DNA of 64,000 bases, from NCBI GenBank assembly GCA_016794505.1, contig JAEUJZ010000076.1, forward strand, positions 128,001 to 192,000, given 5' to 3'. Both the position numbers and the translations under genes were made by a program. Below are positions 1,608 through 24,485 of this stretch, piece by piece; position 1 is the first letter of the stretch; every line of letters starts with the position of its first letter. The notes beneath the pieces are model-generated. The model ran no database searches. It saw only the letters and a program-made list of their open reading frames with translations, and was not told the origin of the DNA. Source of the stretch: Myxococcales bacterium (lineage in GTDB: Bacteria; Myxococcota_A; Polyangia; Palsa-1104; JAEUJZ01).

Positions 1608-2069
1608 ATGCGGCAGCGCAACGCACTTCGCCTTGTCGGTGTCTTGTGTTTGGCAGCCGTGGCCTGTCGTGAAGGCAGCCAGCCTCGACCTGCAGCCCAA
1701 AGCGACAGCGAGACCTTCGCCAGCGCTGTGGGCTTTCAGGTCGGTGCTGGGTCCAGCGGCATCGTGATCTCTGGTCAGTTCGCCACCGTTCCAGGGGGAC
1801 AGGAAGAGCGCTTGATTCCAACCCTGCCCAATGCGACGCAGGTCTGGCTTTCCACCTGCGCCGGACAGCTTAGCGAGCGCGCCGCCAGCGTTGACATCTG
1901 GCTGACTCTGCTTCCCGGCGGCAAGGTCAAAGAGGCGCGGGCGATGAACGGTGCGACGCCGCTTTCCCGCTGCTTGGTCGACGAGATCTCGCGTCAGACC
2001 TTGTCGGGCTTGTCGCTCTCGTCCGAGACCCGCATCGCGCTGCGGCTTGCGCTTAGCAAGACGGCGTGA
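1608..2069 (+). CDS. hypothetical lipoprotein
   Basis: Lipoprotein-type signal 'LVGVLCLAAVAC'. Its stop overlaps the downstream GTG start (GTGA), suggesting translational coupling. Confidence 0.5.
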   Translation: MRQRNALRLVGVLCLAAVACREGSQPRPAAQSDSETFASAVGFQVGAGSSGIVISGQFATVPGGQEERLIPTLPNATQVWLSTCAGQLSERAASVDIWLTLLPGGKVKEARAMNGATPLSRCLVDEISRQTLSGLSLSSETRIALRLALSKTA

Positions 2070-3727
2070 GCACACACCTGCTGCGGGCGGCGATCCGCGA
2101 TCGCTTGGCCGACGAACGACTGCTGGTGTCCGGCCGAAGCGATGGGGCGCTGCGCTTGCCCCTCATCTATCCCAGCCCGTATCACGTCGGCATGTCATCG
2201 CTGGGTTTTCAGACGGTGTACCGCCTGCTGAATCAGCCAGACACCGCGGGCTGGCCCGTGCCGCGACCGCTTCTGCGGGCCGAGCGCGCCTTTCTGCCCG
2301 ACGATGTCGCAGCCTGGCGACGCAGCCGCTTGCCGCTTCTGACGTATGAATCGCAGGCGCCAGTCGGTGATGCGCCGCTGCTGCTGTTTTCCATCGCCTA
2401 CGAGCTTGAGATCACCGGCCTGTTTACTTGCCTAGATCTAGCCGGCCTGCCGATCCTGCGCAGCCAGCGCGGCCCTGGGCAGCCGCTCGTCATCTGCGGC
2501 GGACCGCTGACCTTTTCCAACCCGCTGCCGCTCGGCCCCTTCGTCGACGTGGTGGTGATGGGCGAGGCCGAAGAGACGCTGCCAGCGCTTCTGTCAGCGA
2601 TCTGGGATGCCGGTCTGAACCCAAGTCCAGGCCGCGGAAACGCGGACGCGCTGTCGAGCGGAAGCGGACGCGAGGCCCTGCTTTCTGCGCTGGCCACGCT
2701 GCCAGGCGTATGGGTGCCGTCGGTGCATGGCGAGGTACTGCCCAAGGTCGGCCAGTGTGACGATGCGCTGCTGCCCGCGACGTCCGCCATTTTGACGCCG
2801 CATACCGAGCTGCGATCGATGTTCTTGATCGAGCCCGAGCGCGGCTGCTCGCGCGGCTGCACATACTGCGTCATGCGGCGCAGCACCAACGGCGGCATGC
2901 GCTTGGTCTCGCCCGAGCGGGTAAAGAGCCTGCTTCCCGACGACATCACGCGCGTCGGCTTGGTTGGCGCGGCGGTGACCGATCACCCGCGCTTGCCGCA
3001 GATCCTGCACCACATCGTCGTCGAACGCGGCCTGGAAGTGGGCATCAGCTCGCTGCGCGCCGACCGCTTGACGTCCGAGATCGTCGGACTTCTGCGACAG
3101 GGTGGCTACCGCACGCTGACCGTGGCCAGCGACGGCGCCTCTGAGCGCATGCGCGAGCTCGTCGAGCGCAGGACGCGCGAGCGCCATCTTTTGCGCGCCG
3201 CCGAGCTAGCCAAGCAGCACGATCTGCGCACGCTCAAGGTCTACATGATGGTGGGTTTGCCCGGCGAGACCGATGCTGACATCGACGAGCTCGTGCGCTT
3301 CGCAGGCGAGCTTGCGCAGCACTGCCGGCTCGCCTTTGGGGTCGCGCCCTTCGTTGCCAAGCGCAACACGCCGCTCGACGGAGCGCCGTTTGCCGGCATC
3401 GCGGACGTCGAAGCGCGCCTAGATCGCCTGCGTCGCGGGCTGCGCGGCATCGCGGATGTGCGCCCGACGTCGGCGCGCTGGGCCTGGGTCGAGTACCTCT
3501 TGGCCCAAGGCGACAGCGACGCCGGACTGCGAGCCTGGGTCGCACACCAAAATGGCGGCGGCTTTGCCGCCTGGCGGCGGGCCTTTTCCGGCTATGCGAC
3601 GCGGCTTGAGCGCCTGGCAGCGGCCGCAGCACCCGCCGATTCATCCCACGACGCAGGGACCGCGCCTGCGGACTCGGCGAACCGCGGCCAGACGCGACGA
3701 TCTTTGCCCGTGCTGGCAGAAGCCTAG
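2066..3727 (+). CDS. B12-binding-domain radical SAM protein
   Basis: 'CSRGCTYC' is a CxxxCxxC radical-SAM cluster motif. The N-terminal region looks like a B12-binding-like domain. GTG start overlapping the upstream stop. Confidence 0.85.
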   Translation: MSTHLLRAAIRDRLADERLLVSGRSDGALRLPLIYPSPYHVGMSSLGFQTVYRLLNQPDTAGWPVPRPLLRAERAFLPDDVAAWRRSRLPLLTYESQAPVGDAPLLLFSIAYELEITGLFTCLDLAGLPILRSQRGPGQPLVICGGPLTFSNPLPLGPFVDVVVMGEAEETLPALLSAIWDAGLNPSPGRGNADALSSGSGREALLSALATLPGVWVPSVHGEVLPKVGQCDDALLPATSAILTPHTELRSMFLIEPERGCSRGCTYCVMRRSTNGGMRLVSPERVKSLLPDDITRVGLVGAAVTDHPRLPQILHHIVVERGLEVGISSLRADRLTSEIVGLLRQGGYRTLTVASDGASERMRELVERRTRERHLLRAAELAKQHDLRTLKVYMMVGLPGETDADIDELVRFAGELAQHCRLAFGVAPFVAKRNTPLDGAPFAGIADVEARLDRLRRGLRGIADVRPTSARWAWVEYLLAQGDSDAGLRAWVAHQNGGGFAAWRRAFSGYATRLERLAAAAAPADSSHDAGTAPADSANRGQTRRSLPVLAEA

Positions 3728-3734
3728 GCAGCCG

Positions 3735-4454
3735 ATGCCGCGCCTGCCGATCGCGCTTCTGGGTCGCGAGCTGCGCTTTCCTGCCGTCGAGCAAGCGCAC
3801 GAAAGCGGCCTGCTTGCGGTCGGTGGCGATCTATCCGTCGAGCGCCTGCTATTGGCCTATGGCAGCGGCATCTTTCCCTGGCCGGAAAAGAACACGCCGA
3901 TCCTGTGGTGGGCTCCGCCCGAGCGCGCCATCATCGAGCCGCAGCACCTGCACGTCGGACGCAGCCTGCGCAAGCTTGTGCGCCGCGGCGAGTTCACGGT
4001 GCGCGCCGATCACGACTTTCCCGCCGTCATCCGCGCCTGCGCCCGCATTCCCCGTCGCGGTCAGCGCGGCACCTGGATCTTGCCGGCCATGATCGACGCC
4101 TACATCCGCTTGCATGAAGCCGGCTATGCCCACTCGATCGAGGCCTATCGCGACGGCGTCTTGTGCGGCGGGCTGTACGGCGTGTCGCTGGGCGGCTGCT
4201 TCTTTGGCGAGTCGATGTTTTCGCAGGTCGACAACGCATCCAAGGTCGCCTTCGTCGTGCTGGCCGAGCAGCTTTCGGCCTGGGGCTTCGACGTGATCGA
4301 CGCACAGGTGCAGAACGATCACCTAGAGCGCTTCGGCGTCTATACCATCGAGCGCGCCGCGTTTATGATCCGTCTGCGCAAGAGCCTCTTGTTGCCGACG
4401 CGCAAAGGCAGGTGGCAGCTGGACCTGCCCATGGCGCGCGACGACAAACCCTAG
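3735..4454 (+). CDS. aat: leucyl/phenylalanyl-tRNA--protein transferase
   Basis: 'GGDLSVERLLLAYGSGIFPW', 'ILWWAP', 'GESMFS..NASKVA' are collinear with E. coli Aat. ATG at 3735 lies 8 bp after the rSAM stop; the tracked ORF from 3456 is an upstream extension. Confidence 0.85.
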   Translation: MPRLPIALLGRELRFPAVEQAHESGLLAVGGDLSVERLLLAYGSGIFPWPEKNTPILWWAPPERAIIEPQHLHVGRSLRKLVRRGEFTVRADHDFPAVIRACARIPRRGQRGTWILPAMIDAYIRLHEAGYAHSIEAYRDGVLCGGLYGVSLGGCFFGESMFSQVDNASKVAFVVLAEQLSAWGFDVIDAQVQNDHLERFGVYTIERAAFMIRLRKSLLLPTRKGRWQLDLPMARDDKP

Positions 4455-5564: not shown

Positions 5565-5743
5565 GAGGCTGTCCTCGTCACGGGCGATTACGCCACCAGT
5601 CACCTAGGTCGGTTTGACACGCACGCGCGGCGCAGGACGCGGACGCGCTGATTCCTCCGCCGGGACCAGTGCTTAGCGGTACCGCTCGACTCGTCCCCGC
5701 CTTTCTGAGTAGTGTTTGAGGCGAGTTTTACTGGGGGATTCGC

Positions 5744-8700
5744 GTGTTCGCAGAAGCTGTGCGTGCTGCATTGGTCTTGATGTTCTTTGGCGTCTCGGGT
5801 CAGTCGCTGACCGCGGCACCCAAAGCCACCACCGTCGCCGCGTCGGGCATCACCACATCGTCGGCGGTGCTCAACGGCATCGGCAACCCAAGCGGAGAAG
5901 CCACCACAGGACGCTTCCGCTATAGCTCGACCAACCCTGGGACGTGCAACGACACGTTCGGCACCCGCGTGCCCACGGCCGGCGGCACCGATCTGGGCAC
6001 AGGCAGCTCGCCCGTCCCCTACTCGATCACCACCACCGGCCTGACGCCAGGCGTCACGTATTACTTCTGCTCGATCGTCTCGAATGCGTCGGGCACGTCG
6101 TTTGGCGCCATCCTTTCGTTCACCATTCCGGCGCCGCCCGTGGTGGTGACCACTGGCTCGACGATGGTGACCAGCGGCTCGGCGACGCTGCAGGGCACGG
6201 CTGACCCGCTGACTTCACCGACGACGGGCTGGTTCCGCTACGGCACGACGAACCCCACGGCTTGCGACGACTCCTTCGGTACCCGCGCCCCCTGGAGCGG
6301 CGGATCGTCGCTGGGTTCAAGCGTCGGCGCGGTGGCGTACACGACGTCGATCAGCGGCCTTCTGCCCGCGACGACGTATTACTTCTGCGCCATCGCGCAA
6401 AACGGCTTGGGCACCGGCTTCGGTCGCATCGAGTCGTTCACCACTCCAGCCAATGCGCCCTCGGTCAGCACCAACAGCGCGAGCAGCCTGACGCGCACCA
6501 CGGGCGTGCTGAACGGCAGCGCCAACCCCGGTGGCTCGGCGACGACGGCGTGGTTCCGCTATGCCACGGCCAGCCCCGGCACCTGCAACGACACCTTTGG
6601 CACCCGCGCCCCAGCCAGCGGCGGATCGTCGCTGGGCGCGGGCACCAGCAGCGCCAACTTCTCGCAGTCGATCTCGGGCTTGTCGTCGGCCACGACCTAT
6701 TACTACTGCGCCATCGCCGTCAACGCCGTCGGCACAAGCTGGGGCAGCGTGCAGTCGTTCACCACGCCGTCTTCGCCCACGGTGCGCACCACGCCGGCCA
6801 GCAACATCAGCAACACCACGGCCACGCTCAATGGCGCCGGCAACCCGCAGCGCGCAAGCACCACCGGCTGGTTCCGCTATGCCATCAGCGACCCCGGCAC
6901 CTGCGACGACAAGTTCGGCTCGCGAGCCCCGGTCAGCGGCGCGATCAACCTGGGCGCTGACATCTACGACGTCGATTACCTCGTGAATATCTCGGGGCTC
7001 TCTCCTGCCACTACGTATTGGTACTGCGCCATCATTGCCAGCAGCGAAGGCACAGCGTTTGGCAAGGTCATGACCTTTACCACTGCTTCGGCGCCCGTGG
7101 CCGTCACCAACGCAGCCACCAACGTCACGTCGAGCGGCGCGGTAATCAACGGCGCAGGCAACCCCAACGGATCGAGCGCAAGCGGCTGGTTCCGCTACTA
7201 CACCGTCGATCCTGGGACCTGCAATGACTCGTTCGGCTGGCGCATCCCGTCGAGCGGCGGCACATCGCTGGGCGCGGGCAATACAGCGACGCCTTTTGCC
7301 CAGTCGCTAAGCGGCCTGTCGCCGTCGACGACCTATTACTACTGCGCCATGGTCAACAACAGCTATGGCACCAGCTTTGGCGCCGTGCAGAGCTTTACCA
7401 CCACGGCCATGCCTCCCACGGTCAGCACGGGCAGCGCCAGCAGCCTGACGCGGACGACCGGCGTGCTCAACGGCTACGCCAACCCCGGAGGCATCGCCAC
7501 CACCGCCTGGTTCCGCTACAGCAAAGTCAGCCCCGGCACGTGCAACGACAGCTTCGGCGACCGCGCCCCCGGTACTGGCGGCTCGTCGCTGGGCTCGGGC
7601 AGCAGCAGCGTCGCGTTCTCGCAGGCCATCTCGGGTCTTACGCCCGCGACGATGTATTACTTCTGCGCCTTCGCCAGCAACTCGATGGGCACGGTGGTTG
7701 GCTCGGTGCAGACGTTCATCACGCCGGCCTCGCCGACTGCCCGCACGACGCCGGCCAGCAACATCAGCAACTCTTCGGCGACGCTAAATGGCGCCGGCAA
7801 CCCGCAGCGCTCGGCGGCCAGCGGCTGGTTCCGCTACAGCGCCACCAACCCCATGACCTGCGACGACAAGTTCGGCTCGCGCGCCCCGGTTAGCGGCGCC
7901 ACCAACCTCGGAGCCGACATCTATGACGTCGACTACGTCACCAACATCACCGGCCTTTCGCCCGGCACGACCTATTACTTCTGCGCCATCGTCAGCAGCA
8001 CCGAAGGCATAGCCTTCGGCGCGATTCAGTCGTTTACCACCGCCGGGCCGGTCACCGTCAGCACCAGCGCGGCCACCAGCGTCACCGCATCGTCGGCGGT
8101 GTTAAACGGCACCGGCAACCCCAACGGCGCCACCGCCGCTGGCTGGTTCCGCTACAGCAACACCGACCCTGGCACCTGCAATGACTCGTTCGGCTGGCGC
8201 GCTCCGTACACGGGCAACGTCAACCTGGGAGCCACCGCCACCGTCGTCCCATTCACGCAGTCGGTGACCAGCCTGTCACCGGGCACGACCTATTACTTCT
8301 GCGCCATCGCCAACAACAGCTATGGCACCAGCTTTGGCGCCGTCATGTCGTTCACCACGCCGGCCACGGCCCCGTCGGTCAGTACCAGCGGTGCGACCAG
8401 CTTGACGCGCACGACAGCGGTCCTAAACGGCTACGCCAACCCCGGCGGCATCGCCACCACGGCGTGGTTCCGCTACAGCAAGCTCAGCCCTGGCACCTGC
8501 AACGACAGCTTCGGCGACCGCGCCCCCGGCACGGGCGGCTCGGCGCTCGGCTCGGGCAGCAGTGGCGTCAGCTTCTCGCAGGCGATCTCGGGTCTTTCGC
8601 CCGCGACGACGTATTACTTCTGCGCCATCGCCGCCAACACCATGGGCACGGTGCTGGGCTCGGTGCAGACGTTCATCACGCCGGGCTCACCGACCGCCCG

Positions 8701-11700
8701 CACCACAGCCGCTAACAACATCACCACCACGTCCGCGACGCTAAACGGCGCCGGCAACCCGCAGCGCGCGGCCACCACCGGCTGGTTCCGCTACGCCACC
8801 TCGGACCCCGGTACCTGCGACGACAAGTTCGGCTCGCGAGCCCCCGTGATGGGAGGCACCGCCCTCGGCGCCGACATCTATGACGTCGACTACGTCACCA
8901 ACATCAGCGGTCTATCGAGCGGGACGACGTATTACTACTGCGCCATCGTCAGCAGCAGCGAAGGCATGGCGTTTGGCACCATCCAGTCGTTCACGACCTC
9001 GGGCATTCCGACGGCAACTACGGTGGCGGCGAGCAGCGTGACCTCGTCGTCGGCTGTGCTCAACGGCACCGGCAACCCCAACGGCGCCGCTGCCATCGGC
9101 TGGTTCCGCTACAGCAACACCGATCCCGGCACCTGCAACGACAGCTTTGGCTGGCGTGCGCCGTACACGGGCAACAGCAACCTGGGATCCACCGCTGGCA
9201 GCGTGCCGTTTGCGCAGACGGTCAGCAGCCTGTCGCCGGGCACGACCTATTACTACTGCGCCATCGCCAGCAACAGCTATGGCGTGGGCTTCGGCGCGGT
9301 CATGACGTTCAGCACGCCCGCCACGGCTCCGACGGTCACCACCAGCGGAGCCAGCAACCTCACGCGCACGACCGGCGTACTAAACGGCTATGCCAACCCC
9401 GGCGGCGCCGCCACCACGGCGTACTTCCGCTATGACACGGCCAGCCCCGGCACCTGCAACGACAGCTTTGGCAAGCGCTCGCCGTCGACCGGTGGCTCGT
9501 CGCTGGGCTCGGGCGCCAGCAGCGTGTCGTTCTCGCAGTCCATCTCGGGCCTGACTGCCGCGACGATGTACTACTACTGCGCGATTGCCTCGAACACCAT
9601 CGGCAAGGCCTTCGGCACGGTGCAGTCGTTCATCACGCCCAGCGCACCGACGGCTCGCACCACGCCGGCCAGCAACATCGCCAACACCTCGGCGACGCTA
9701 AATGGCGCCGGCAACCCGCAGCGCGCCGCAGCATCCGGTTGGTTCCGTTACAGCACCACCAACCCCATGACCTGCGACGACAAGTTCGGCTCGCGCGCCC
9801 CGGTCAGCGGCGCCACCAACCTCGGAGCCGACATCTATGACGTCGACTACGTCACCAACATCACCGGCCTTTCGCCCGGCACGACCTATTACTTCTGCGC
9901 CATCGTCAGCAGCACCGAGGGCACGGCGTTTGGCACCATCCAGTCGTTCACCACGGCCTCGCCGCCTGTGGCGATCACCAAGCCGGCCACGTCGATCACC
10001 GCTTCCTCGGCGACCCTGAACGGAGAGGGAACGCCCAATGGCTCTGCCGCCACCGGCTGGTTCCGCTACGGCAACACCGACCCCGGCACCTGCAGCGATA
10101 GCTACGGCACCCGCCTGCCGTGGAGCGGCAGCACGTCGCTGGGCGCCGGGACCACCAGCGTGCCCTTTGCCGGCGCGCTGAGCAGCCTGACGCCTGGCGC
10201 GACCTATTACTTCTGCGCCATCGTCAGCAACGGCTATGGCACAAGCTTTGGCGCCGTGCAGTCGTTCAAGATGCCGGCGACCGGCCCCGCCGTCACCACC
10301 AGCGGAGCCAGCAGCCTGACGCGCACGACGGGCGTGCTCAACGGCTACGCCAACCCCGGCGGCGATGCCACCACCGCCTGGTTCCGCTACGGCACGGCCA
10401 GCCCTGGCACCTGCAACGACACCTTCGGTACGCGCGCTCCGACAACGGGTGGATCGTCGCTGGGCTCGGGCACCAGCACGGTGTCGTTCTCGCAGGCCAT
10501 CTCAGGCCTGTCGCCGGCCACGACCTATTACTACTGCGCCATCGCCGCCAACTCGGTCGGCACCTCGTGGGGCACCGTGCAGACGTTCATCACGCCGACG
10601 GCGCCGACGGCACTGACCACGCCAGCCAGCAACATCACCAACACCACGGCGACGCTCAATGGCTCGGGCAACCCGAACCGCGGCGCGACCCAGGGCTGGT
10701 TCCGCTATGCCACCAGCGACCCCGGCACCTGCGACGACAAGTTCGGCTCGCGAGCGCCGACCTCGGGCGGCGTCAGCCTGGGCAGCGACATCTATGACCA
10801 GCCCTATTCCGTAAATATCGCCGGTCTGTCGCCCGCCACCACGTATTATTACTGCGCCATCGTCAGCAGCACCGAAGGCACGGCGTTCGGCGCGGTGCTG
10901 ACCTTCACCACGTCGGCGCCCGCCACGGCGACCACGCTTTCCGCGAGCAGCGTCGCATCGACCACGGCGACGCTCAACGGCTCGGGCAACCCCAACGGCG
11001 CCGCAGCCACCGGCTGGTTCCGCTACAGCACCACCAGCCCCGGCACGTGCAACGACAGCTTTGGCACGCGCATGCCGTCCAGCGGAGGTACCTCGCTGGG
11101 CTCGGGCACGGGCAGCGTCGCCTTTGGTCAGGCCATCACCGGGCTGTCACCCGGCGTGACCTATTACTACTGCGCGTTCGCCTCGAACGCCGTGGGCATG
11201 GGCATGGGCGCGCTCTTGTCGTTCACCACGCCGGCCAGCTTGCCGACGGTCATCACCGAAGCGCCGTCGGGCATCGCCATCCAGCTAAACGGCACGGTCA
11301 ACCCCAACGGCGCCGCGACGGTTGGCTGGTTCCGCTTGGCCACCACCAGCCCCGGCACCTGCAACGACACCTTCGGGACGCGCGTGCCGACTACCGGCGG
11401 TACGTCGCTCGGCTCGGGAGCCAGCTACGTCTCGTACCAGCAGCCGGCGCCGAGCTTGGTGCCGGGCACGACCTACTACTACTGCGCGATTGCCTCGAAC
11501 GCAGTGGGCACGTCGTATGGCGTCGTGCGCTCGTTCACGGCGCCGATGCCGCCGACCGTCGCAACGCTGGCCGCGACGCCTGTGACGGCGACCACGGCGA
11601 CGCTTAACGGCTCGGGCAATCCCAACGGCAACTCGACGATTGCCTGGTTCCGCTACAGCACCAGCAGCCCGACGACCTGCAACGACGTGTTCGGCACGCG

Positions 11701-13066
11701 CACTCCGTCGAGCGGCGGCACGTCTCTTGGCGCTGGCACCAGCGATACGCCGTTCGCGCAGCCGATCTCTGGCTTGGCTCCCGCGACGACGTATTACTTC
11801 TGCGCCATCGCATCGAGCGCATACGGCACGGTGCTCGGCTCGGTGCTGTCGTTCACCACGCCGCCGTCTTCGTCGATCGTCAAGCCCACCGAGCCAAGCA
11901 CAGGCGCCACCACGTCGAGCCGCGTCCACACCATGGCCGCCACCGAGGTCACGGCCGACGGCGCGGTGCTCAACGGCTCTGCCAACCCCAGCGGCGAACC
12001 GAGCACCGGCTGGTTCCGCTTTGACACCACCGATCCCGGCACCTGCGACGACACGTTCGGCATGCGCACGCCGTCCCAAGGCGGCACCGATCTGGGCAAG
12101 GATCACAAGCCGGTGGCCTTCTCGCAGGGTCTAAGCGGCCTGAAGTCGGGCACGACCTACTACTTCTGCGCCGTCGCGTCGAGCGGCGAGAAGGCGCGCT
12201 TCGGCAGCGTCCTTTCGTTCACCACCCAGGAAGGCACCGCCGCCATCACCACGGCCCCGCCGACCGAGGTCAGCGAAGATGCCGCGGTGCTAAACGCGAC
12301 GGTGGCAGCCCGTGGCGAGACGCCATCCCGCGTGTGGTTCCGCTACAGCGAAAAGAACCCCGGCGCGTGCAGCGACACCTTCGGCATCGCCGCCGAAGCG
12401 AGCGCAGGACTCGGTGCAAGCGGGGAAGGCGCGACGGCGTACTCGGTTGCGGTGTCGGGCCTCAAGCGCGGCACGACCTACTTCGTCTGCGCCTTGGCCC
12501 AAAGCGCCGCCGGTACCCGCCTGGGCGAGGTCCTGTCCTTCGTCGCTGGCGAGAAACCGCCCACCGTGGTCACCGAGGACGCGACGCCCATCGAGGGCAC
12601 CCAGGCCACCGTCACCGGCACCGCCGACCGCAGCAGCGCCCCCAGCAAGGTCTGGTTCCGCTATGGCGAGTCGGATCCTGGTGTCTGCGACGACCGCTTC
12701 GGCAGCCACGTACAGGCCAGCAGTGATACCCCGGTCGACGTCGACAGCTCACGCGGCGTGTACTCCGCACGTCTCGCGGGTCTCAAGCCGAACACCACGT
12801 ATTACTACTGCATCGGCGGCAGCAACCAGGGTGGCGCCACGTTCGGCCAGGTCCGCTCGTTCCGAACCGGCGCGTCGCTTGCGGCCTCGGCTGCCTTGGC
12901 GGGCGATGTGACGGTCGACGCCGTGCGTGAAGCCCCTGAGCCCGTCGAGATGCGCGGCTGCAGCTATCTGCCGCATGCCAGCGAGCGCGGTGCCCAGGTG
13001 CCGCTTGTCGCCCTGCTCTCGCTGCTTGGTCTGCTTGCCTTCCGCCGCCGCCTGCGTCGCAGCTAG
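5744..13066 (+). CDS. giant secreted repeat protein with MYXO-CTERM-like C-terminal sorting signal
   Basis: 2440 aa with an N-terminal signal peptide. It contains 22 tandem ~105-aa units; each carries 'LNG.GNP.G...GWFRY..PGTC.D.FG.R.P.GG..LG' and 'TYYYCAI..N..GT.FG..QSFTTP' (FN3-like strands plus a Cys pair). The C-terminus 'GCSYLPH...VPLVALLSLLGLLAFRRRLRRS' is a Cys + hydrophobic helix + Arg cluster. Confidence 0.85.
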   Translation: MFAEAVRAALVLMFFGVSGQSLTAAPKATTVAASGITTSSAVLNGIGNPSGEATTGRFRYSSTNPGTCNDTFGTRVPTAGGTDLGTGSSPVPYSITTTGLTPGVTYYFCSIVSNASGTSFGAILSFTIPAPPVVVTTGSTMVTSGSATLQGTADPLTSPTTGWFRYGTTNPTACDDSFGTRAPWSGGSSLGSSVGAVAYTTSISGLLPATTYYFCAIAQNGLGTGFGRIESFTTPANAPSVSTNSASSLTRTTGVLNGSANPGGSATTAWFRYATASPGTCNDTFGTRAPASGGSSLGAGTSSANFSQSISGLSSATTYYYCAIAVNAVGTSWGSVQSFTTPSSPTVRTTPASNISNTTATLNGAGNPQRASTTGWFRYAISDPGTCDDKFGSRAPVSGAINLGADIYDVDYLVNISGLSPATTYWYCAIIASSEGTAFGKVMTFTTASAPVAVTNAATNVTSSGAVINGAGNPNGSSASGWFRYYTVDPGTCNDSFGWRIPSSGGTSLGAGNTATPFAQSLSGLSPSTTYYYCAMVNNSYGTSFGAVQSFTTTAMPPTVSTGSASSLTRTTGVLNGYANPGGIATTAWFRYSKVSPGTCNDSFGDRAPGTGGSSLGSGSSSVAFSQAISGLTPATMYYFCAFASNSMGTVVGSVQTFITPASPTARTTPASNISNSSATLNGAGNPQRSAASGWFRYSATNPMTCDDKFGSRAPVSGATNLGADIYDVDYVTNITGLSPGTTYYFCAIVSSTEGIAFGAIQSFTTAGPVTVSTSAATSVTASSAVLNGTGNPNGATAAGWFRYSNTDPGTCNDSFGWRAPYTGNVNLGATATVVPFTQSVTSLSPGTTYYFCAIANNSYGTSFGAVMSFTTPATAPSVSTSGATSLTRTTAVLNGYANPGGIATTAWFRYSKLSPGTCNDSFGDRAPGTGGSALGSGSSGVSFSQAISGLSPATTYYFCAIAANTMGTVLGSVQTFITPGSPTARTTAANNITTTSATLNGAGNPQRAATTGWFRYATSDPGTCDDKFGSRAPVMGGTALGADIYDVDYVTNISGLSSGTTYYYCAIVSSSEGMAFGTIQSFTTSGIPTATTVAASSVTSSSAVLNGTGNPNGAAAIGWFRYSNTDPGTCNDSFGWRAPYTGNSNLGSTAGSVPFAQTVSSLSPGTTYYYCAIASNSYGVGFGAVMTFSTPATAPTVTTSGASNLTRTTGVLNGYANPGGAATTAYFRYDTASPGTCNDSFGKRSPSTGGSSLGSGASSVSFSQSISGLTAATMYYYCAIASNTIGKAFGTVQSFITPSAPTARTTPASNIANTSATLNGAGNPQRAAASGWFRYSTTNPMTCDDKFGSRAPVSGATNLGADIYDVDYVTNITGLSPGTTYYFCAIVSSTEGTAFGTIQSFTTASPPVAITKPATSITASSATLNGEGTPNGSAATGWFRYGNTDPGTCSDSYGTRLPWSGSTSLGAGTTSVPFAGALSSLTPGATYYFCAIVSNGYGTSFGAVQSFKMPATGPAVTTSGASSLTRTTGVLNGYANPGGDATTAWFRYGTASPGTCNDTFGTRAPTTGGSSLGSGTSTVSFSQAISGLSPATTYYYCAIAANSVGTSWGTVQTFITPTAPTALTTPASNITNTTATLNGSGNPNRGATQGWFRYATSDPGTCDDKFGSRAPTSGGVSLGSDIYDQPYSVNIAGLSPATTYYYCAIVSSTEGTAFGAVLTFTTSAPATATTLSASSVASTTATLNGSGNPNGAAATGWFRYSTTSPGTCNDSFGTRMPSSGGTSLGSGTGSVAFGQAITGLSPGVTYYYCAFASNAVGMGMGALLSFTTPASLPTVITEAPSGIAIQLNGTVNPNGAATVGWFRLATTSPGTCNDTFGTRVPTTGGTSLGSGASYVSYQQPAPSLVPGTTYYYCAIASNAVGTSYGVVRSFTAPMPPTVATLAATPVTATTATLNGSGNPNGNSTIAWFRYSTSSPTTCNDVFGTRTPSSGGTSLGAGTSDTPFAQPISGLAPATTYYFCAIASSAYGTVLGSVLSFTTPPSSSIVKPTEPSTGATTSSRVHTMAATEVTADGAVLNGSANPSGEPSTGWFRFDTTDPGTCDDTFGMRTPSQGGTDLGKDHKPVAFSQGLSGLKSGTTYYFCAVASSGEKARFGSVLSFTTQEGTAAITTAPPTEVSEDAAVLNATVAARGETPSRVWFRYSEKNPGACSDTFGIAAEASAGLGASGEGATAYSVAVSGLKRGTTYFVCALAQSAAGTRLGEVLSFVAGEKPPTVVTEDATPIEGTQATVTGTADRSSAPSKVWFRYGESDPGVCDDRFGSHVQASSDTPVDVDSSRGVYSARLAGLKPNTTYYYCIGGSNQGGATFGQVRSFRTGASLAASAALAGDVTVDAVREAPEPVEMRGCSYLPHASERGAQVPLVALLSLLGLLAFRRRLRRS
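6170..11220 (+). repeat. ~957-bp higher-order tandem repeat (three-domain super-repeat, about 5 copies) inside the giant gene
   Basis: The 'SLTRTT..GYANPGG' anchor recurs at ~6485, 7442, 8398, 9356 and 10312 (spacing 956-958 bp). Domain types A-B-C alternate regularly. Confidence 0.8.
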
Positions 13067-13149: not shown

Positions 13150-14163
13150 CTACACGCCGCGAATAAAGTGGCGCATGCGGGCGCGGTTTTCCGGCGAATA
13201 GTCGACGGCCGGCGGGTTCGCGCAGTGTTCTTCTTCGCGGTTGGCCGACCACAGGAACGTCGCCGGATAGCCTTTTTCAGCCAGCAGCCGCAGGCGGCTC
13301 TCGACGTCCTGCCGCGCGCCTAGCTCGGGCCAGGGACGGTGCGGCGCGGTGGCGATCTCACCGACGATGACCGGCCAGCGCGGGTCAAAGTCGTGGACCG
13401 GTATGTGGCCCGGCTCGGCATAGTAATGAAACTGGTGCAGCGTCAGCCCCATGCCCGGCGAGTCCCACTGCCGCAGCGACGCGTGATACGCGAAGCCCAC
13501 CGTCGACAAAAAGCCCGCTTCGTTGATCAGGCTGGCCCCCCGCGTGATGAACGCCCGCATCTCATCGCGCCGCACTGGTTTGCACGGATCGAGAGCGCTT
13601 AGCGGCTGCTCCGGCGCGCTCGTACACCACTCGGGCTCGTTGATGACTTCCCAGGCATAGATCACGTCGGGAAAGTCCGCCGAGCACTGCAGCAGCGGCA
13701 CCAGCGTCGTCTGCAGAAACGTCTCGCGCTTTTCGGGGTCACACAGAAGCTCGTGGCGGCCCGACTTGACGATGCCATCTGAGCCCGGCACGGCCACACC
13801 CGGAAACGCCAAGTGGAAGTCGACCAGCGACGGCAAAAGCTGAATGCCGGCGATGGCGCAGCGCTCTAGCAGAAAGCTGAAGTCTGCGATGAAGCCGCTC
13901 GGCAGCGACGGAACTTCGCCCATCGTCCAGCCCTTTTGTGCATCCAAGACCGGCTTCTTATCGTCGATGCCATAGGTCGTTCCATCCCCCAGCAGAAACC
14001 AGCGCACCGCGCAGAAGCCCAGCGCAGCAAACTCGGCAAGCTCGTGGTCGATGCGCTCGCGCCACGCGGCCGGCGCGCCCCACAGCGAACCCGAGTTCTT
14101 TTTCGGGGCCGACCCAAAGTCCCAGGCGTAGTTCTTCCATGCGTAGTTGATGCCGACCTTCAT
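13150..14163 (-). CDS. glycoside hydrolase, clan GH-A (GH5-like) TIM-barrel
   Basis: 'WEVINEPEW' is a candidate NEP acid/base motif and 'VIVGEIA' a candidate nucleophile Glu. N-terminus 'MKVGINYAWKNYAWDFG'. Confidence 0.55.
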   Translation of the reverse strand: MKVGINYAWKNYAWDFGSAPKKNSGSLWGAPAAWRERIDHELAEFAALGFCAVRWFLLGDGTTYGIDDKKPVLDAQKGWTMGEVPSLPSGFIADFSFLLERCAIAGIQLLPSLVDFHLAFPGVAVPGSDGIVKSGRHELLCDPEKRETFLQTTLVPLLQCSADFPDVIYAWEVINEPEWCTSAPEQPLSALDPCKPVRRDEMRAFITRGASLINEAGFLSTVGFAYHASLRQWDSPGMGLTLHQFHYYAEPGHIPVHDFDPRWPVIVGEIATAPHRPWPELGARQDVESRLRLLAEKGYPATFLWSANREEEHCANPPAVDYSPENRARMRHFIRGV

Positions 14164-14347: not shown

Positions 14348-15136
14348 ATGGGCTTGGGCGTTCGTCGTCGATTCGTGGCTGGAATCGGGTCCGATGCAAC
14401 TTGGGATCCAGGCAAGCGGCGACACCGCCGCGCCCGCATCGCAGCGCCGTCCGTGCTAGCGCTGGCACTGTTCGCCTCGGGCTGTGAAGGCCGGGGCGAA
14501 GGACAGATCAGCGGCACGCTGTTTCTGCGCGACTGTCCCGATCAAGATCCGACCTACGACTCGAAGCGCAGCAGCACCGTAGTGCCCAGCCCCTTGCCTG
14601 ACTTTGCCCTGAACCCGACGTACTTTTTCGTCGATGTGCAGTTCGCGCAGCGGCCCGGCTGGTATCCCGATCCGCGCGCCGTCGACTCGATGTTCATCCG
14701 CCTGCAGCGAAGCTCGCACAAGCCGGATCGCACCGATGTATTTCAGCTGTCCGTCCACGACATCGACGGCGTGCTGGCCGCGCAGCAGGCGGCGCTTTCG
14801 CGTGGCGAGCCGGGTGTGCCGATCATTCCGCCGAACGTCTCGACGATGAACGCGCCGCTTCCCGATGACCCCGCCGAGAGCGTACGCGCCGACATCGCGC
14901 TAAACGGCAGCTGCCAGTTTTCACGCGTCGAGCCGCTCATGCGCGGGCACATCCGCTTTTCGGCGCTGGGCCGCAACGTCGGTGAAGAGATCTCCGCGGA
15001 GCTGCGCGTGACCGTCGAAGATGGCCGCGCCGCTCGCGAGCAAGGCAGCCCGCCGCCGAGCCCCAATGTGGCCGGCGAGCTAGCCGGCTCGTTCCGCTTC
15101 TTCATCTCGCGCGGGCAGCGCGGCTATAGCTGGTAG
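14348..15136 (+). CDS. hypothetical lipoprotein
   Basis: 'VLALALFASGC' lipobox. True start uncertain (possibly a downstream GTG/TTG). GC3-rich frame. Confidence 0.45.
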   Translation: MGLGVRRRFVAGIGSDATWDPGKRRHRRARIAAPSVLALALFASGCEGRGEGQISGTLFLRDCPDQDPTYDSKRSSTVVPSPLPDFALNPTYFFVDVQFAQRPGWYPDPRAVDSMFIRLQRSSHKPDRTDVFQLSVHDIDGVLAAQQAALSRGEPGVPIIPPNVSTMNAPLPDDPAESVRADIALNGSCQFSRVEPLMRGHIRFSALGRNVGEEISAELRVTVEDGRAAREQGSPPPSPNVAGELAGSFRFFISRGQRGYSW

Positions 15137-20381: not shown

Positions 20382-21560
20382 CTAGGCCAAGACGTGCGGT
20401 ACGTGTAGCTCGCCGCGCGAGAGGAGCTGACGGCAGATGACCATGCGCTGCACTTCGTTGGTGCCCTCGCCGATCTCGCACAGCTTGGCGTCACGCATGT
20501 GGCGCTCGACGGGGTACTCGCGGGTATAGCCATAGCCGCCGTGGATCTGCACGGCGCGGTTGCACGCCCGCATCGCCGCCTGCGCCGCGTACAGCTTGGC
20601 CATCGACGCGGCCAGCGTGATGCGCTGGCCTTGGTCGTACATCCAAGCGGCGCGTCGAATCAAAAGGCGCGCCGCGTCAAGCTCGGTCGCGTTGTCGGCG
20701 AGCATGTTCTGGATCGCCTGGAACTCAGCCAGCGACTTGCCGAACTGCCTGCGCTCGCGGGCATAGCGACGGGCCGCTTCGTGCGCGCCATAGCCTAAGC
20801 CCAGCGCCATGGCCGCGATGGTGACGCGCCCCTTGTCGAGGATCTTCAGCGTGTCGATAAAGCCGTGATCGACCTGACCCAAGCGCTGGCTGTCGGCCAG
20901 TCGCACATCGTCGAGGATGAGCTCGGCGGTGTCCGAAGCATGCAGGCCCATCTTTTCCAGCACCTTGCCAGCGCGGAAACCAGGCGTGCCGCGCTCGACA
21001 ATAAAGGCGGTGATGCCGTGCTGCTTTTTTTCGGGTGTGCTGACCGCAAGCACGACATACGTGCCGCCCACCGAGCCCTGCGTGATGAAGGTCTTGGTGC
21101 CGCTTAGGCTCCAGCTTCCGTCGTCGAGGCGGGTGGCGCGGGTGCGAGCGCCAGCCGCATCGGATCCCGAGCCCGGCTCGGTCAGGCCCCAGGCGCCCAG
21201 CTTCTTGCCGCTGGCCAGATCGGGCAGGTACTTCATCTTTTGCTCTTCGGTGCCGGCGAGCAGGATATGGCCCGAGGCCAGGCCGTTGTGCGACGCGACG
21301 GTGATGGCGACGCTGCCGTCGACAGCGGCGAGCTCTTCGACGACCAAGGCGATAGCCTGCAGCGACATCTCGGCGCCGCCGTAGCGCTCGGGAATCGCCA
21401 TGCCCAAGAGCCCCAGCGCGCCCAGCTTGGGAATCAGCTCATGCGGAAAGCGCTCTTCTTCGTTCCACGCGTGGCAAAAGGGAGCCACTTCCGCCGCGGC
21501 GAATTCGCGCACGGTCTTTTGCAGGACGCGCAGATCTTCGGGCAGTTCAAAGTCAAGCAT
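20382..21560 (-). CDS. acyl-CoA dehydrogenase
   Basis: 'GAWGLTEPGSGSDA', 'YAAQAAMRACNRAVQIHGGYGYTREYPVER', 'GEGTNEVQR' are acyl-CoA dehydrogenase signatures. Start taken at MLDFELPED. Confidence 0.9.
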   Translation of the reverse strand: MLDFELPEDLRVLQKTVREFAAAEVAPFCHAWNEEERFPHELIPKLGALGLLGMAIPERYGGAEMSLQAIALVVEELAAVDGSVAITVASHNGLASGHILLAGTEEQKMKYLPDLASGKKLGAWGLTEPGSGSDAAGARTRATRLDDGSWSLSGTKTFITQGSVGGTYVVLAVSTPEKKQHGITAFIVERGTPGFRAGKVLEKMGLHASDTAELILDDVRLADSQRLGQVDHGFIDTLKILDKGRVTIAAMALGLGYGAHEAARRYARERRQFGKSLAEFQAIQNMLADNATELDAARLLIRRAAWMYDQGQRITLAASMAKLYAAQAAMRACNRAVQIHGGYGYTREYPVERHMRDAKLCEIGEGTNEVQRMVICRQLLSRGELHVPHVLA

Positions 21561-21641
21561 GATGGACCTTTGTCTATCTGGCCGCAGCGCACGTCGATGG
21601 CGACCCATGCCGTCGCTGCGCAGGCATGTGGGGAAGTCAGG

Positions 21642-22106
21642 CTAGGAAAGTCGGCTGGCCTCAGCATGGGGACGAACCACAGACTCGATGAAGTCGACGA
21701 TCTCGTGCGTCGAGGCTCCGGGCTTAAACAGCGCCCGCACGCCGCGCTCGCGCAGCTCTTTTTCGTCCTCTTCGGGAATGATGCCGCCGCCGAACACGAT
21801 CACGTCGCCCGCACCGCGCTTGCCTAGCTCGCCCATCACCGCCGGGAACAGCGTCATGTGCGCCCCCGACATGATCGAAAGGCCAACCGCGTCGACGGCC
21901 TCTTGCACCGCGGTGGCAGCGATCATCTCGGGCGTCTGATGCAGGCCGGTATAGATCACTTCGTACCCGGCATCCGACAGCGCGCGGGCAACGACTTTGG
22001 CGCCGCGATCGTGGCCATCCAGCCCCGGCTTGGCGATCAAGATGCGAAGCTTGGCCGCGCCCGCAGGCGCTCGGCTTTTGCCTCCCTGGTTCTCAGACAT
22101 GGTCAA
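21642..22106 (-). CDS. cobalamin (B12)-binding domain protein (methylmalonyl/isobutyryl-CoA mutase small-subunit-like)
   Basis: '[33 protein letters not shown]' contains the DxHxxG B12-binding motif. The ~150-aa size is typical of mutase small subunits. Confidence 0.8.
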
Positions 22107-23996: not shown

Positions 23997-24017
23997 CTGG
24001 GCGGTTTCCTCGCGACG

Positions 24018-24485
24018 CTACATGATGGGGCGCAGGAAGAAGTTGCACTGCACCGGAGTCAGCGTCTGTCCCGTCGGATACGACCAGCCCTTGACCGCCT
24101 CCAAGATGCAGGCTTCTAGCTCTCTACGTTCGCCGCTGTTTAGGACGCTGGCTTCTTGCGCCCGTCCCTCGGGGTTGACCAGCATCGAGATGCGGATCTC
24201 TGCCTCGAACTTCTTGCCGCCGTTGCGCTCGGACTCTTGCATCCAGCAGCGCGAAATATCGGGGCTGGTCTGCGCCTTGCGCGTGCAGACCTTGCGCACT
24301 TCCGCGGCCCGTTCCTCGGTGTTCTCGACGGTGGGCGTCTCATAAGCCGGCGCCTCGGGCTTGACATAGGGCCTGGGCGTCGGCTTGGCCACCTTGGGTG
24401 GCTCTGAACAGCCGCTGGCCAAACAGACCATCGCGAGCGCGATCGAAGCGGGCAATCGGCAGAGGAGATCGTAGGTCCTGCGCAT
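24018..24485 (-). CDS. hypothetical lipoprotein with AgmX/PglI-like C-terminal domain
   Basis: 'LAMVCLASGC' lipobox. C-terminal 'ISRCW...ISMLVNPEGRAQEASVLNSG..LEACILEAVKGWSYP' matches the same domain pattern. Confidence 0.5.
   Translation of the reverse strand: MRRTYDLLCRLPASIALAMVCLASGCSEPPKVAKPTPRPYVKPEAPAYETPTVENTEERAAEVRKVCTRKAQTSPDISRCWMQESERNGGKKFEAEIRISMLVNPEGRAQEASVLNSGERRELEACILEAVKGWSYPTGQTLTPVQCNFFLRPIM

What the first reader, a model, noticed from the sequence alone, without database searches (positions are those of the whole stretch)
5744..13066. Giant 2440-aa surface protein of 22 FN3-like Cys-pair domains with a MYXO-CTERM-like sorting tail
Each ~105-aa unit ends 'TYYYCAI.SN..GT.FG..QSFTTP', like FN3 F/G strands, and has a conserved Trp in 'GWFRY'. 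Each unit also carries an invariant Cys pair ('PGTC(N/D)D' ... 'YYC'), which canonical FN3 lacks. The protein ends in Cys + hydrophobic helix + RRRLRR, resembling the Myxococcales MYXO-CTERM tripartite sorting signal. This is a candidate adhesin or S-layer-like protein that seems not to be well described as a family.
Basis: partly seen in the sequence, partly recalled or inferred. Interest (0 to 1): 0.8.

Follow-up and report, generated by a model that had tools for sequence, protein, structure and literature searches.

The report
Giant disulfide-stapled FN3 surface protein
This gene encodes a 2440-residue protein of an uncultured myxobacterium: a signal peptide, 22 fibronectin-III-like beads each carrying a cysteine pair, and a variant of the myxobacterial C-terminal sorting tag; it belongs to a large, already annotated but functionally unstudied family, so it is a solid but fairly ordinary find.

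Summary

The Cys pair is present in 2823 of 2842 units from 120 homologues. It goes with an inserted C-C' loop of about 8 residues that the far more common Cys-less relatives (WFEY...YYFR) lack, so a loop-to-F-strand disulfide is inferred.

The tail (GCSY, hydrophobic helix, RRRLRR) fails the MYXO-CTERM model (6.6 bits, cut-off 20). However, most homologues end at the same place in a classical GCGC MYXO-CTERM (29-37 bits). The nearest subfamily has an invariant GCS motif and scores 14-25 bits. The tail is best read as a single-Cys MYXO-CTERM variant.

The exact protein is already in NCBI as an "FN3 domain-containing protein" from a Myxococcales MAG. No synteny, no myxosortase and no secretion genes were found nearby. 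The likely role is a lipid-anchored rod of roughly 80 nm on the cell surface, acting as an adhesin or spacer; this is inferred, not shown. Novelty and interest are modest.

The parts
5733..5738 (+). Shine-Dalgarno-like GGGGGA, 5 nt upstream of the GTG start
   Evidence: Read directly from the sequence.
5744..13066 (+). Whole gene: 2440 codons plus stop; the mature protein is about 239 kDa with pI 5.8
   Evidence: Identical to NCBI protein P0002, 'MAG: fibronectin type III domain-containing protein [Myxococcales bacterium]'.
5744..5818 (+). Predicted Sec signal peptide (MFAEAVRAALVLMFFGVSGQSLTAA, cleavage around residue 24/25)
   Evidence: Judged by eye: a hydrophobic core followed by small residues. 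Homologues have the same layout (M..LR.A.FVLVF....AAAP). No signal-peptide predictor was available.
5819..6136 (+). Unit 1, the distal (N-terminal) FN3-like unit and a conserved 'tip' subtype
   Evidence: It best matches the first unit of 69% of 93 other full-length family members, at a mean 66% identity. Identity to unit 1 of P0005, P0055, P0070 and P0019 is 95, 82, 81 and 72%.
6137..6457 (+). Unit 2
   Evidence: positionally orthologous in relatives.
6458..11233 (+). Units 3-17: five tandem three-unit cassettes (types A, B, C; DNA period about 957 bp)
   Evidence: Identity matrix: A units share 71-84%, B units 69-93%, C units 61-80%. TRF reports period 318 over 6546-11863. Most of these units are closer to same-type units of the same protein than to their best match in more distant relatives, which indicates homogenisation or recent amplification. 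Period-3 recurrence of the A type is seen across the family.
11234..11869 (+). Units 18-19
   Evidence: One-to-one orthology in P0051 and P0055 (unit 19 at 81-87%); the shorter P0070 matches through its corresponding C-terminal units.
11861..11917 (+). 19-aa Pro/Ser/Thr linker (PPSSSIVKPTEPSTGATTS), the only long inter-unit linker
   Evidence: 122-aa spacing at this point; sequence.
11918..12877 (+). Units 20-22: charged, divergent, membrane-proximal units
   Evidence: D+E is 10-11 and K+R is 8-9 per unit, against 1-7 and 2-6 in units 1-19. These are the least conserved units across the family; units 21-22 average 45% best identity.
12878..12955 (+). 26-aa linker between the last unit and the sorting signature
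   Evidence: Variable in length and sequence among relatives.
12956..12964 (+). Signature motif G2405-C2406-S2407 (GCSY); Cys2406 is the presumed lipidation and cleavage-site Cys
   Evidence: GCS is invariant in 11 aligned subfamily tails. It corresponds in position to the GCGC of classical MYXO-CTERM homologues.
12998..13042 (+). Hydrophobic helix VPLVALLSLLGLLAF (residues 2419-2433)
   Evidence: Sequence. This stretch through the first two Arg is what aligned to TIGR03901.
13043..13060 (+). Arg-rich cytoplasmic cluster RRRLRR
   Evidence: Sequence. RRR is invariant in the subfamily.

Best explanation
The gene encodes a giant cell-surface protein of an uncultured Myxococcota bacterium, built from 22 tandem FN3-type domains.

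**The unit.** Each domain is a derived form of the very common bacterial 'LNG.xNPNG...WFEYG...YYFR' FN3-like repeat. An insertion of about 8 residues in the C-C' loop carries Cys1, and the Arg on the F strand is replaced by Cys2. The two Cys are inferred to form a disulfide that pins the loop onto the F strand and stiffens each bead.

**The route to the surface (by analogy with TraA of M. xanthus).** The protein is exported by Sec and held in the inner membrane by its C-terminal helix. [quoted passage not shown] There it stays attached by its C-terminus.

**The layout on the surface.** The 22 beads, at about 3.5 nm each (textbook FN3 size), would make a rod of about 80 nm. The charged units 20-22 sit at the base. 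Five homogenised three-unit cassettes act as an extensible spacer. A conserved unit 1 sits at the tip.

**Function.** The most likely role is adhesion or spacing towards surfaces, matrix polysaccharide or other cells.

**Shown versus inferred.** Shown here: the architecture, the fold, Cys-pair conservation, family membership and the nature of the tail. Inferred: the disulfide, processing, surface location and function.
For: - **Architecture and Cys pattern:**
- **FN3 fold:**
  - Pfam FN3-clan hits.
  - AF2 pLDDT 96.2 and pTM 0.85, with strands in FN3 order.
  - Foldseek top hits are RsgI4 sensor, CDO/BOC and Dscam FN3 domains.
- **Rod-like arrangement:** the three-unit model has pLDDT 94.9 and pTM 0.72, the inter-unit linkers are short, and all five models score alike.
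- **Cys pair across the family:** both present in 2823 units, both absent in 13, only Cys2 in 6.
- **Link between the Cys pair and the loop:**
  - Among the top 140 new representatives, 38 are all-Cys-pair proteins with about 14 residues in the loop segment.
  - 92 are Cys-less proteins with about 6.6 residues there.
  - In Cys-less units that lack the loop, the Cys2 position is Arg in 905 of 1039.
- **Cys positions in the model:** Cys43 lies in the confidently modelled C-C' loop and Cys84 lies mid F strand.
- **Tail:**
  - It is tripartite with a Cys.
  - 65 of 120 homologues end in CxC, 5 in CC and 22 in a single Cys.
  - Classical tails score 28.8-37.4 bits, subfamily tails 14.1-24.7 bits and ours 6.6 bits on TIGR03901.
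  - GCS and RRR are invariant in the subfamily.
- **Same tail type elsewhere:** two paralogues in one Polyangia genome both carry GGCSF tails (L006, L016). An unrelated VWA/Cys-repeat protein with an NCSY tail sits in a genome whose family member has a GCGC tail (L040).
- **Literature on the model:** the MYXO-CTERM model is known to miss lineage-specific forms, and true domains always have at least one Cys (10.1101/2023.06.07.544157, section 13).
- **Literature on the pathway:** MrtX cleavage, the Cys requirement and T2SS-dependent surface display are shown for TraA; lipidation is proposed (PMC11980579).
- **Organism:** a Myxococcales MAG, with neighbouring FHA-sigma54 activator and PP2C genes.
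- **Positional specialisation of units:**
Against: - The tail fails the curated MYXO-CTERM model by a wide margin (6.6 against 20 bits).
- Subfamily tails also give sub-threshold hits to JDVT-CTERM (15-23 bits, cut-off 27).
- Many subfamily tails have a Pro inside the hydrophobic segment, which Haft lists as atypical for MYXO-CTERM.
- No myxosortase/CPBP gene, T2SS gene or other tripartite-tail protein is in the 64-kb window, nor in the 27-kb loci L001-L004 around four subfamily relatives. The presence of the sorting machinery in this genome is therefore untested.
- The Cys-Cys distance could not be measured, because model coordinates are not returned.
- There is no expression, localisation or binding data for any family member, and there is no conserved gene neighbourhood from which to infer function.
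Confidence: 0.7

Rival explanations
1. The tail belongs to a distinct Cys-containing sorting signal class. It would be a 'GCS[YF]' single-Cys signal with a Leu/Pro-rich helix, handled by its own CPBP-type or other sorting enzyme rather than by the general myxosortase. The final destination could then differ from that of classical MYXO-CTERM proteins.
For: - Our tail scores 6.6 bits on TIGR03901, and most subfamily tails fall below the cut-off.
- Several subfamily tails score as well or better on JDVT-CTERM (22.9, 22.2 and 19.0 bits).
- The GCS motif is invariant, and an LLPL-type Pro in the helix is frequent.
- Both paralogues in genome STL-MYX5 carry the GGCSF form.
Against: - Scores form a continuum across the cut-off. 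Three subfamily tails pass at 21.1, 21.5 and 24.7 bits.
- The proteins are clear homologues of GCGC-tailed family members and end at the same position.
- Single-Cys MYXO-CTERM domains are accepted by the model's curator.
- JDVT-CTERM systems are reported never to occur in Myxococcota, and they have a DP motif that is absent here.
Confidence: 0.15
2. The C-terminal helix is a permanent anchor. The protein would stay in the inner membrane with its 22 domains in the periplasm, or be released into the matrix by unrelated proteolysis, so it is not a lipid-anchored surface protein.
For: - The tail fails the curated model.
- No sorting enzyme is nearby.
- Some MYXO-CTERM proteins are also partly shed.
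Against: - A rod of about 80 nm does not fit a periplasm. This rests on textbook FN3 size and typical Gram-negative periplasm width, not on a measurement here.
- An invariant GCS motif 12-15 residues before the helix has no reason to be conserved in a plain anchor.
- Homologues carry bona fide MYXO-CTERM tails.
Confidence: 0.1
3. The ORF is an assembly artefact, a collapsed or chimeric repeat array, or it belongs to a phosphatase (the Pfam names are PhoD_N and Pur_ac_phosph_N).
For: - The DNA is repetitive, with an exact repeat of 113 bp.
- A sister MAG assembly breaks inside the gene (L005, a contig of only 4.3 kb).
- The best Pfam names are phosphatase N-terminal domains.
Against: - Units are diverged, with at most 93% protein identity between any two.
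- The same 22-unit, 2440-aa architecture appears in independently assembled relatives, with one-to-one unit orthology.
- The reading frame is intact, with GC3 of 0.87 throughout.
- No catalytic domain of any kind was found. The Pfam models named are simply FN3-like N-terminal domains.
Confidence: 0.03

Closest known systems
MYXO-CTERM surface proteins of Myxococcota (TIGR03901; prototype TraA of Myxococcus xanthus, sorted by myxosortase MrtX and the T2SS)
   Same: - N-terminal signal peptide.
- Extreme C-terminal tripartite signal: a motif with a Cys, a hydrophobic helix and an Arg cluster.
- A Myxococcota host.
- Most homologues of this protein carry a tail that passes the model.
   Different: - This tail has a single Cys in a GCSY context instead of GCGC.
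- The spacer from the Cys to the Arg cluster is longer: 27 residues against 16-27 (mostly 17-25) in the CxC-type tails.
- It scores 6.6 bits against a cut-off of 20.
- The passenger is unrelated to TraA (PA14-like plus Cys-rich repeats). Its tip is conserved, not polymorphic.
SgmI (MXAN_2561) of M. xanthus: FN3 domains plus a C-terminal MYXO-CTERM tag, implicated in type-IV-pilus-dependent motility
   Same: FN3-type passenger with a MYXO-CTERM-type anchor. It is discussed as a cell-surface adhesion factor (10.64898/2026.08.28.747804).
   Different: - SgmI has two FN3 domains and is small; this protein has 22 Cys-pair units.
- The full protein did not hit the NCBIfam MXAN_2561_fam model.
- No downstream beta-barrel partner gene is present here.
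The widespread Cys-less bacterial FN3-like repeat 'ATLNGTVNPNG..T.WFEYGTT...TTYYFRVVA.N..GT..G...SFTT' (detected by Pfam PF16656/PF16655/PF00041)
   Same: - Same fold, same strand order and same conserved motifs (LNG, NPNG, WF.Y, TTYY, SFTT).
- The unit profile finds 45,917 representative proteins at E<=1e-3.
- These repeats also typically occur in long tandem arrays.
   Different: - Cys-less units are about 95 aa and lack about 8 residues of the C-C' loop.
- They have Glu in WFEY and Arg where Cys2 sits.
- The unit here has the loop insertion PGTC(N/D)D.FG.R.P and an invariant Cys pair.
JDVT-CTERM / MrtJ system (Cys-containing tripartite signal of beta- and gamma-proteobacteria)
   Same: - A single invariant Cys, a Leu-rich helix and an Arg cluster.
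- Subfamily tails give sub-threshold JDVT-CTERM hits of 15-23 bits.
- Both are thought to be processed by CPBP-family proteases.
   Different: - All scores are below the cut-off of 27.
- There is no DP motif before the helix and no adjacent MrtJ-like gene.
- JDVT-CTERM is reported absent from Myxococcota.
Giant repeat adhesins of Gram-negative bacteria (e.g. SiiE, RTX adhesins with tandem beta-sandwich extender domains)
   Same: Hundreds of kDa, made of dozens of tandem beta-sandwich domains that project a distal end far from the cell. Repeat number is variable among relatives: 19-41 units here.
   Different: - Those adhesins are T1SS substrates with Ca2+-stiffened Big/Ig-like repeats and distinct ligand-binding tip domains.
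- This protein has a Sec signal peptide and a C-terminal Cys sorting tag.
- Its stiffening is by disulfide (inferred) rather than Ca2+, and it has no non-FN3 tip domain.

Membership tests
Fibronectin type III fold (Pfam clan E-set/FN3: PF00041, PF16656, PF16655) | Sequence match to FN3-type profile HMMs above the curated cut-off | tested here: met
   PF16656 scores 195.9 bits (cut-off 30, 10 stretches), PF16655 92.4 bits and PF00041 76.7 bits (cut-off 25). The PDB profile search hits titin, Dscam and fibronectin FN3 domains.
Fibronectin type III fold (Pfam clan E-set/FN3: PF00041, PF16656, PF16655) | Seven-strand beta-sandwich with FN3 topology | tested here: met
Fibronectin type III fold (Pfam clan E-set/FN3: PF00041, PF16656, PF16655) | Absence of the intradomain disulfide (canonical FN3 has none) | tested here: not met
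   Every unit has two invariant Cys. A disulfide is inferred but not measured. This marks a variant subfamily, not a different fold.
MYXO-CTERM sorting domain (TIGR03901.2) | Score at or above the curated cut-off (20 bits) on TIGR03901.2 | tested here: not met
   The isolated tail scores 6.6 bits at E 9.9, and the whole protein gives no hit. Relatives score 14.1-24.7 bits in the subfamily and 28.8-37.4 bits for classical tails.
MYXO-CTERM sorting domain (TIGR03901.2) | Tripartite architecture at the extreme C-terminus: signature motif, hydrophobic helix, Arg-rich cluster | tested here: met
   GCSY, a 10-residue spacer, VPLVALLSLLGLLAF, then RRRLRR-S at the very end.
MYXO-CTERM sorting domain (TIGR03901.2) | Invariant Cys in the signature motif (often a second Cys, GCGC) | tested here: met
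   Cys2406 is invariant within GCS in 11 subfamily tails. There is no second Cys. Single-Cys forms are accepted by the curator.
MYXO-CTERM sorting domain (TIGR03901.2) | No charged or Pro residues in the TM helix (Haft, Fig. 1 legend) | tested here: inconclusive
   This tail has one Pro at the N-terminal edge (VPLVALL...). Many subfamily members have an internal LLPL.
MYXO-CTERM sorting domain (TIGR03901.2) | N-terminal signal peptide | tested here: inconclusive
   A signal-like N-terminus is present and conserved in layout among homologues. No predictor was available to score it.
MYXO-CTERM sorting domain (TIGR03901.2) | Host in Myxococcota that encodes a myxosortase (MrtX/MrtC/MrtP) and a T2SS | not testable with these tools
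   The host is a Myxococcales MAG according to NCBI's name for the identical protein.
MYXO-CTERM sorting domain (TIGR03901.2) | C-terminal cleavage and surface anchoring that depend on the Cys | not testable with these tools
   Experimental. Shown only for TraA and MXAN_4924 in M. xanthus.
JDVT-CTERM (NF033191) | Score at or above 27 bits; DP motif before a Leu-rich helix; adjacent MrtJ gene | tested here: not met
   No JDVT hit for this tail at E<=10. Subfamily tails scored up to 22.9 bits, and some gave no hit. There is no DP motif and no CPBP gene nearby.
PhoD-like / purple acid phosphatases | A metallophosphatase catalytic domain after the FN3-like N-terminal domain | tested here: not met
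   Only the FN3-like N-domain models hit; there is no catalytic domain in Pfam or NCBIfam.

The most novel reading that the evidence does not exclude
The GCS[YF] tails (single Cys, longer spacer, Leu/Pro-rich helix) of this roughly 2100-2470-aa subfamily could be a separate Cys-type sorting signal. It would sit between MYXO-CTERM and JDVT-CTERM, be used by an uncultured Polyangia lineage and have its own co-evolved CPBP sorting protease. In addition, the disulfide-stapled FN3 unit could define a mechanically reinforced surface-fibre family that has spread across phyla (Myxococcota, Acidobacteriota, Bacteroidota, Parcubacteria).
Probability: 0.15. Interest if true: 0.5.

Novelty: new variant of a known kind. 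Interest (0 to 1): 0.3.

Why it matters
MYXO-CTERM proteins make up much of the myxobacterial cell surface, yet few have been studied. This family supplies some of the largest predicted clients, at 2,000-4,400 aa. It seems to be represented mainly in uncultured lineages plus Chondromyces apiculatus.

If the model is right, these would be rods of 80-150 nm tethered by a C-terminal lipid. That bears on adhesion, gliding on surfaces, predator-prey contact and matrix organisation.

Two practical points follow.
- The current TIGR03901 model misses the single-Cys GCS[YF] form, so MYXO-CTERM inventories in Polyangia MAGs are undercounted.
- The Cys-pair FN3 unit has no dedicated Pfam or NCBIfam model, although it is easy to define: the two Cys are the only invariant columns in a 145-unit alignment and were both present in 2823 of 2842 homologue units.

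None of this overturns existing ideas. It extends a known sorting system and a known fold.

Tried and rejected
- **Sorting machinery in the window.** I annotated about 30 ORFs with Pfam. They are housekeeping genes only: HutD, radical SAM, Leu/Phe-tRNA transferase, methyltransferase, acyl-CoA dehydrogenases, FtsH, M16 peptidases, CarB and others. No CPBP, rhomboid or T2SS genes were found.
- **Other tripartite Cys tails.** I scanned the window and loci L001-L004 and found none besides the family members. The lineage-specific form of the signal could therefore not be established from independent proteins in the same genome. The wider scan of 76 loci gave only the L016 paralogue and the L040 VWA protein as side evidence.
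- **Conserved gene neighbourhood.** The loci of four relatives share no synteny with the window or with each other. A look-up of the window protein itself found nothing on record.
- **Phosphatase reading of the Pfam names.** Rejected, because there is no catalytic domain.
- **Ig V-set relationship.** This was suggested by weak nanobody hits (E about 0.01) and the WFRx...YYCA motif. I rejected it. Cys1 lies after the C strand, not on the B strand, and the structural neighbours are FN3 domains, not V-set domains.
- **Literature.** Searches for a described member of this family found nothing specific. A search on the top structural neighbour, RsgI4, gave no usable ligand information.
- **Cys-Cys distance.** It could not be measured, because structure prediction returns no coordinates.
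- **Promoter and terminator scan.** Nothing above chance.
Full report
**1. The observation**

ORF 5744-13066 on the + strand is real. It has a GTG start preceded by GGGGGA at a distance of 5 nt, encodes 2440 codons, and has a GC3 of 0.87, the highest of any ORF examined in the window.

The translation divides into 22 units of 104-107 aa, counting unit 19 without the linker that follows it. The WFRY-type motif recurs every 104-108 residues, apart from one 122-residue step caused by a 19-aa Pro/Ser/Thr linker after unit 19.

There are 45 Cys: two per unit, 40-41 residues apart, plus Cys2406 in the tail. The protein ends ...EMRGCSYLPHASERGAQVPLVALLSLLGLLAFRRRLRRS.

An assembly artefact is unlikely.
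- The longest exact DNA repeat in the gene is 113 bp.
- No two units exceed 93% protein identity.
- Independently assembled relatives have the same length and the same 22 units in one-to-one correspondence (P0005: 2440 aa, 86% identity; P0006: 2429 aa).
- A 97%-identical C-terminal fragment from another MAG carries a tail that differs at one residue (L005).

**2. What the unit is**

Pfam assigns the repeats to FN3-clan models: Pur_ac_phosph_N at 1.3e-58 in 10 stretches, PhoD_N at 2.6e-26 and fn3 at 1.7e-21. NCBIfam has no model for them.

I aligned the 22 window units with 123 diverse units from homologues. The two Cys were the only invariant columns.

Cys1 (unit residue 43) lies in the long, confidently modelled C-C' loop. 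Cys2 (residue 84) lies in the middle of the F strand.

**3. The Cys pair**

A unit HMM found 2864 units in the 120 listed homologues. Both Cys are present in 2823, both are absent in 13, and only Cys2 is present in 6. All the exceptions are in two proteins (P0096 and P0108), of which P0096 is named as Saprospiraceae.

A search of 1.84 billion representative proteins with the unit profile found 45,917 proteins at E<=1e-3 and 3,601 at E<=1e-30. Among the top 140 new representatives:
- 38 consist of Cys-pair units, with about 14 residues in the segment that holds Cys1.
- 92 consist of Cys-less units with only about 6.6 residues there.
- The Cys-less units that lack the loop read WFEY...YYFR, with Arg at the Cys2 position in 905 of 1039.

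So the unit is a derived form of a very common bacterial FN3-like repeat. A loop insertion of about 8 residues brings Cys1, and the F-strand Arg becomes Cys2.

I infer that the pair forms a disulfide that pins the inserted loop to the F strand. The grounds are the gain and loss of the two Cys together, their positions, and the extracytoplasmic destination. I could not measure the distance, because coordinates are not returned.

The unit profile also gave weak hits to nanobodies (E about 0.01). These reflect a WFRx...YYCA motif resemblance only. In V domains the partner Cys sits on strand B.

**4. Higher-order anatomy**

- **Central cassettes.** Units 3-17 form five three-unit cassettes. Identity within a type is 71-84% (A), 69-93% (B) and 61-80% (C), against about 50% between types. 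TRF sees the 318-bp period across 6546-11863.
- **Orthology pattern.** Against the close relative P0005, all 22 units are one-to-one orthologues. Against more distant subfamily members, only the end units (1, 2 and most of 17-22) keep their relative positions. Most central units are closer to same-type units of their own protein than to their best match in the other protein. That is the signature of homogenisation or amplification by recombination.
- **Family-wide period.** The period-3 recurrence of the A type is visible across large family members.
- **Tip unit.** Unit 1 best matches the first unit in 69% of 93 other full-length members.
- **Base units.** Units 20-22 are charged (D+E 10-11, K+R 8-9). 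Units 1-19 are strikingly poor in charge.
- **Composition.** The mature protein is 54% Thr+Ser+Gly+Ala.
- **Rigidity.** A three-unit AF2 model has pLDDT 94.9 and pTM 0.72, compatible with a fairly rigid rod.

**5. The tail**

TIGR03901 (MYXO-CTERM) scores the isolated tail at 6.6 bits against a cut-off of 20. The formal model test fails.

The protein is nevertheless a clear member of a family of at least 337 proteins whose members mostly end, at the same position, in a classical tag. Of the 120 listed, 65 have CxC (typically GGCGCRV...), 5 have CC and 22 have a single Cys. Five classical tails scored 28.8-37.4 bits.

The closest relatives are a subfamily of about 2100-2470 aa. Their tails share an invariant GCS and an invariant RRR. 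On TIGR03901 they range from no reported hit, through 10-19 bits, to three that pass the cut-off at 21.1, 21.5 and 24.7 bits. Several also give sub-threshold JDVT-CTERM hits of up to 22.9 bits against a cut-off of 27.

Two further observations bear on the tail.
- In one Polyangia genome (STL-MYX5), two paralogues both end in GGCSF (L006, L016).
- In a Polyangiaceae genome whose family member has a GCGC tail, an unrelated VWA/Cys-repeat protein ends in GGAFNCSY-helix-RRR and also fails the model (L040).

The model's author states that TIGR03901 cannot capture lineage-specific forms. He adds that true domains sit at the C-terminus, always have a Cys and often have two (10.1101/2023.06.07.544157).

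I therefore read the tail as a single-Cys MYXO-CTERM variant. I keep a 15% rival that it is a separate signal with its own enzyme.

**6. Mechanism**

For TraA of M. xanthus, three things have been shown (PMC11980579).
- The CPBP protease MrtX cleaves the tag.
- The cysteines are required.
- Surface display depends on the T2SS.

Lipidation of the Cys is proposed there, not shown.

By analogy, this protein would be Sec-exported, held by its C-terminal helix, modified at Cys2406, cleaved, and displayed on the outer membrane by its C-terminus. With 22 FN3 beads it would reach about 80 nm, using the textbook figure of about 3.5 nm per domain. The charged units would be at the base, the homogenised cassettes would act as a length-variable spacer (relatives have 19-41 units), and a conserved unit would sit at the tip.

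A conserved tip argues against a polymorphic TraA-like recognition role. It favours a common ligand or a structural role. All of this section is inference.

**7. Context**

The exact sequence is NCBI's 'MAG: fibronectin type III domain-containing protein [Myxococcales bacterium]' on a 219-kb contig.

The window is ordinary chromosome and holds no myxosortase or T2SS genes. The loci of four relatives share no synteny. The gene stands alone.

A scan of species-representative genomes found relatives almost only in Myxococcota MAGs, plus Chondromyces apiculatus. Near-identical Cys-pair units also occur in Chloracidobacterium, another Acidobacteria MAG and one Parcubacteria MAG.

**8. Verdict**

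The tail fails the curated model, and the function is untested.

The family is populous and already annotated generically, but I found no paper on it. It is a new variant of known kinds, in both the domain and the sorting tag. Interest is 0.3.

Noticed in passing
L001 16560-19613; L002 19631-23647; L004 1-5054: CHAT, nSTAND1 and WD40 (NLR-like) genes lie within about 5 kb of the family member in three of four relatives' loci, although there is otherwise no synteny. None lies next to the window gene. This may be chance, given how common such genes are in Myxococcota.
   Followed up: no
L001 5139-7085: A 648-aa Rhomboid-domain protein is encoded 3 kb upstream of the GGCSF-tailed relative P0070 in Polyangia bacterium STL-MYX5. 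It was not seen near the other relatives or in the window.
   Followed up: no
window 5819-12877 (unit profile A1): The unit profile gives weak hits (E about 0.01-0.1) to nanobody and antibody V domains, because 'WFRY ... TYYYCA' mimics the V-set 'WFRQ ... VYYCA' motifs. The Cys partner is placed differently (C-C' loop, not B strand) and the fold matches are FN3, so this looks convergent.
   Followed up: partly
L070 8-565; L033 10001-11191; L034 3888-4838; P0096: Near-identical Cys-pair units (WFRYS.TNPG.CND.FGTRAP...TTYYYCAIAQN) occur outside Myxococcota: in a Parcubacteria MAG, in Chloracidobacterium and in another Acidobacteria MAG. In a Saprospiraceae protein they alternate with Cys-less units. 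This suggests cross-phylum spread of the unit.
   Followed up: partly
L040 17429-18874: A VWA-like protein with Myxo_Cys_RPT repeats ends in GGAFNCSY, a helix and RRR. It is a single-Cys tail that also fails TIGR03901, in a genome whose FN3-array protein has a classical GCGC tail. It is another likely MYXO-CTERM protein that the current model misses.
   Followed up: partly
window 13150-14163 (-) and 14348-15136 (+): The two genes just downstream have no Pfam hit. The first contains a 'WEVINEPEW' motif that, from memory, resembles GH5-type glycosidases, and it has no signal peptide. The second has a lipobox-like 'LFASGC' near its N-terminus.
   Followed up: no
window 2066-3727 (+) and 3456-4454 (+): The radical-SAM ORF and the Leu/Phe-tRNA protein transferase ORF overlap by about 270 nt as listed. 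The transferase Pfam domain begins only at residue 129, so its true start is probably well downstream of 3456.
   Followed up: no
window 38514-40664 (+) and 42652-43890 (-): Two sizeable ORFs (716 aa and 412 aa) with coding-like GC3 have no Pfam hit at E<=1e-5.
   Followed up: no
window 20382-25825 (-): A cluster of three acyl-CoA dehydrogenase paralogues is interleaved with a stand-alone B12-binding-domain protein and two ORFs without Pfam hits.
   Followed up: no
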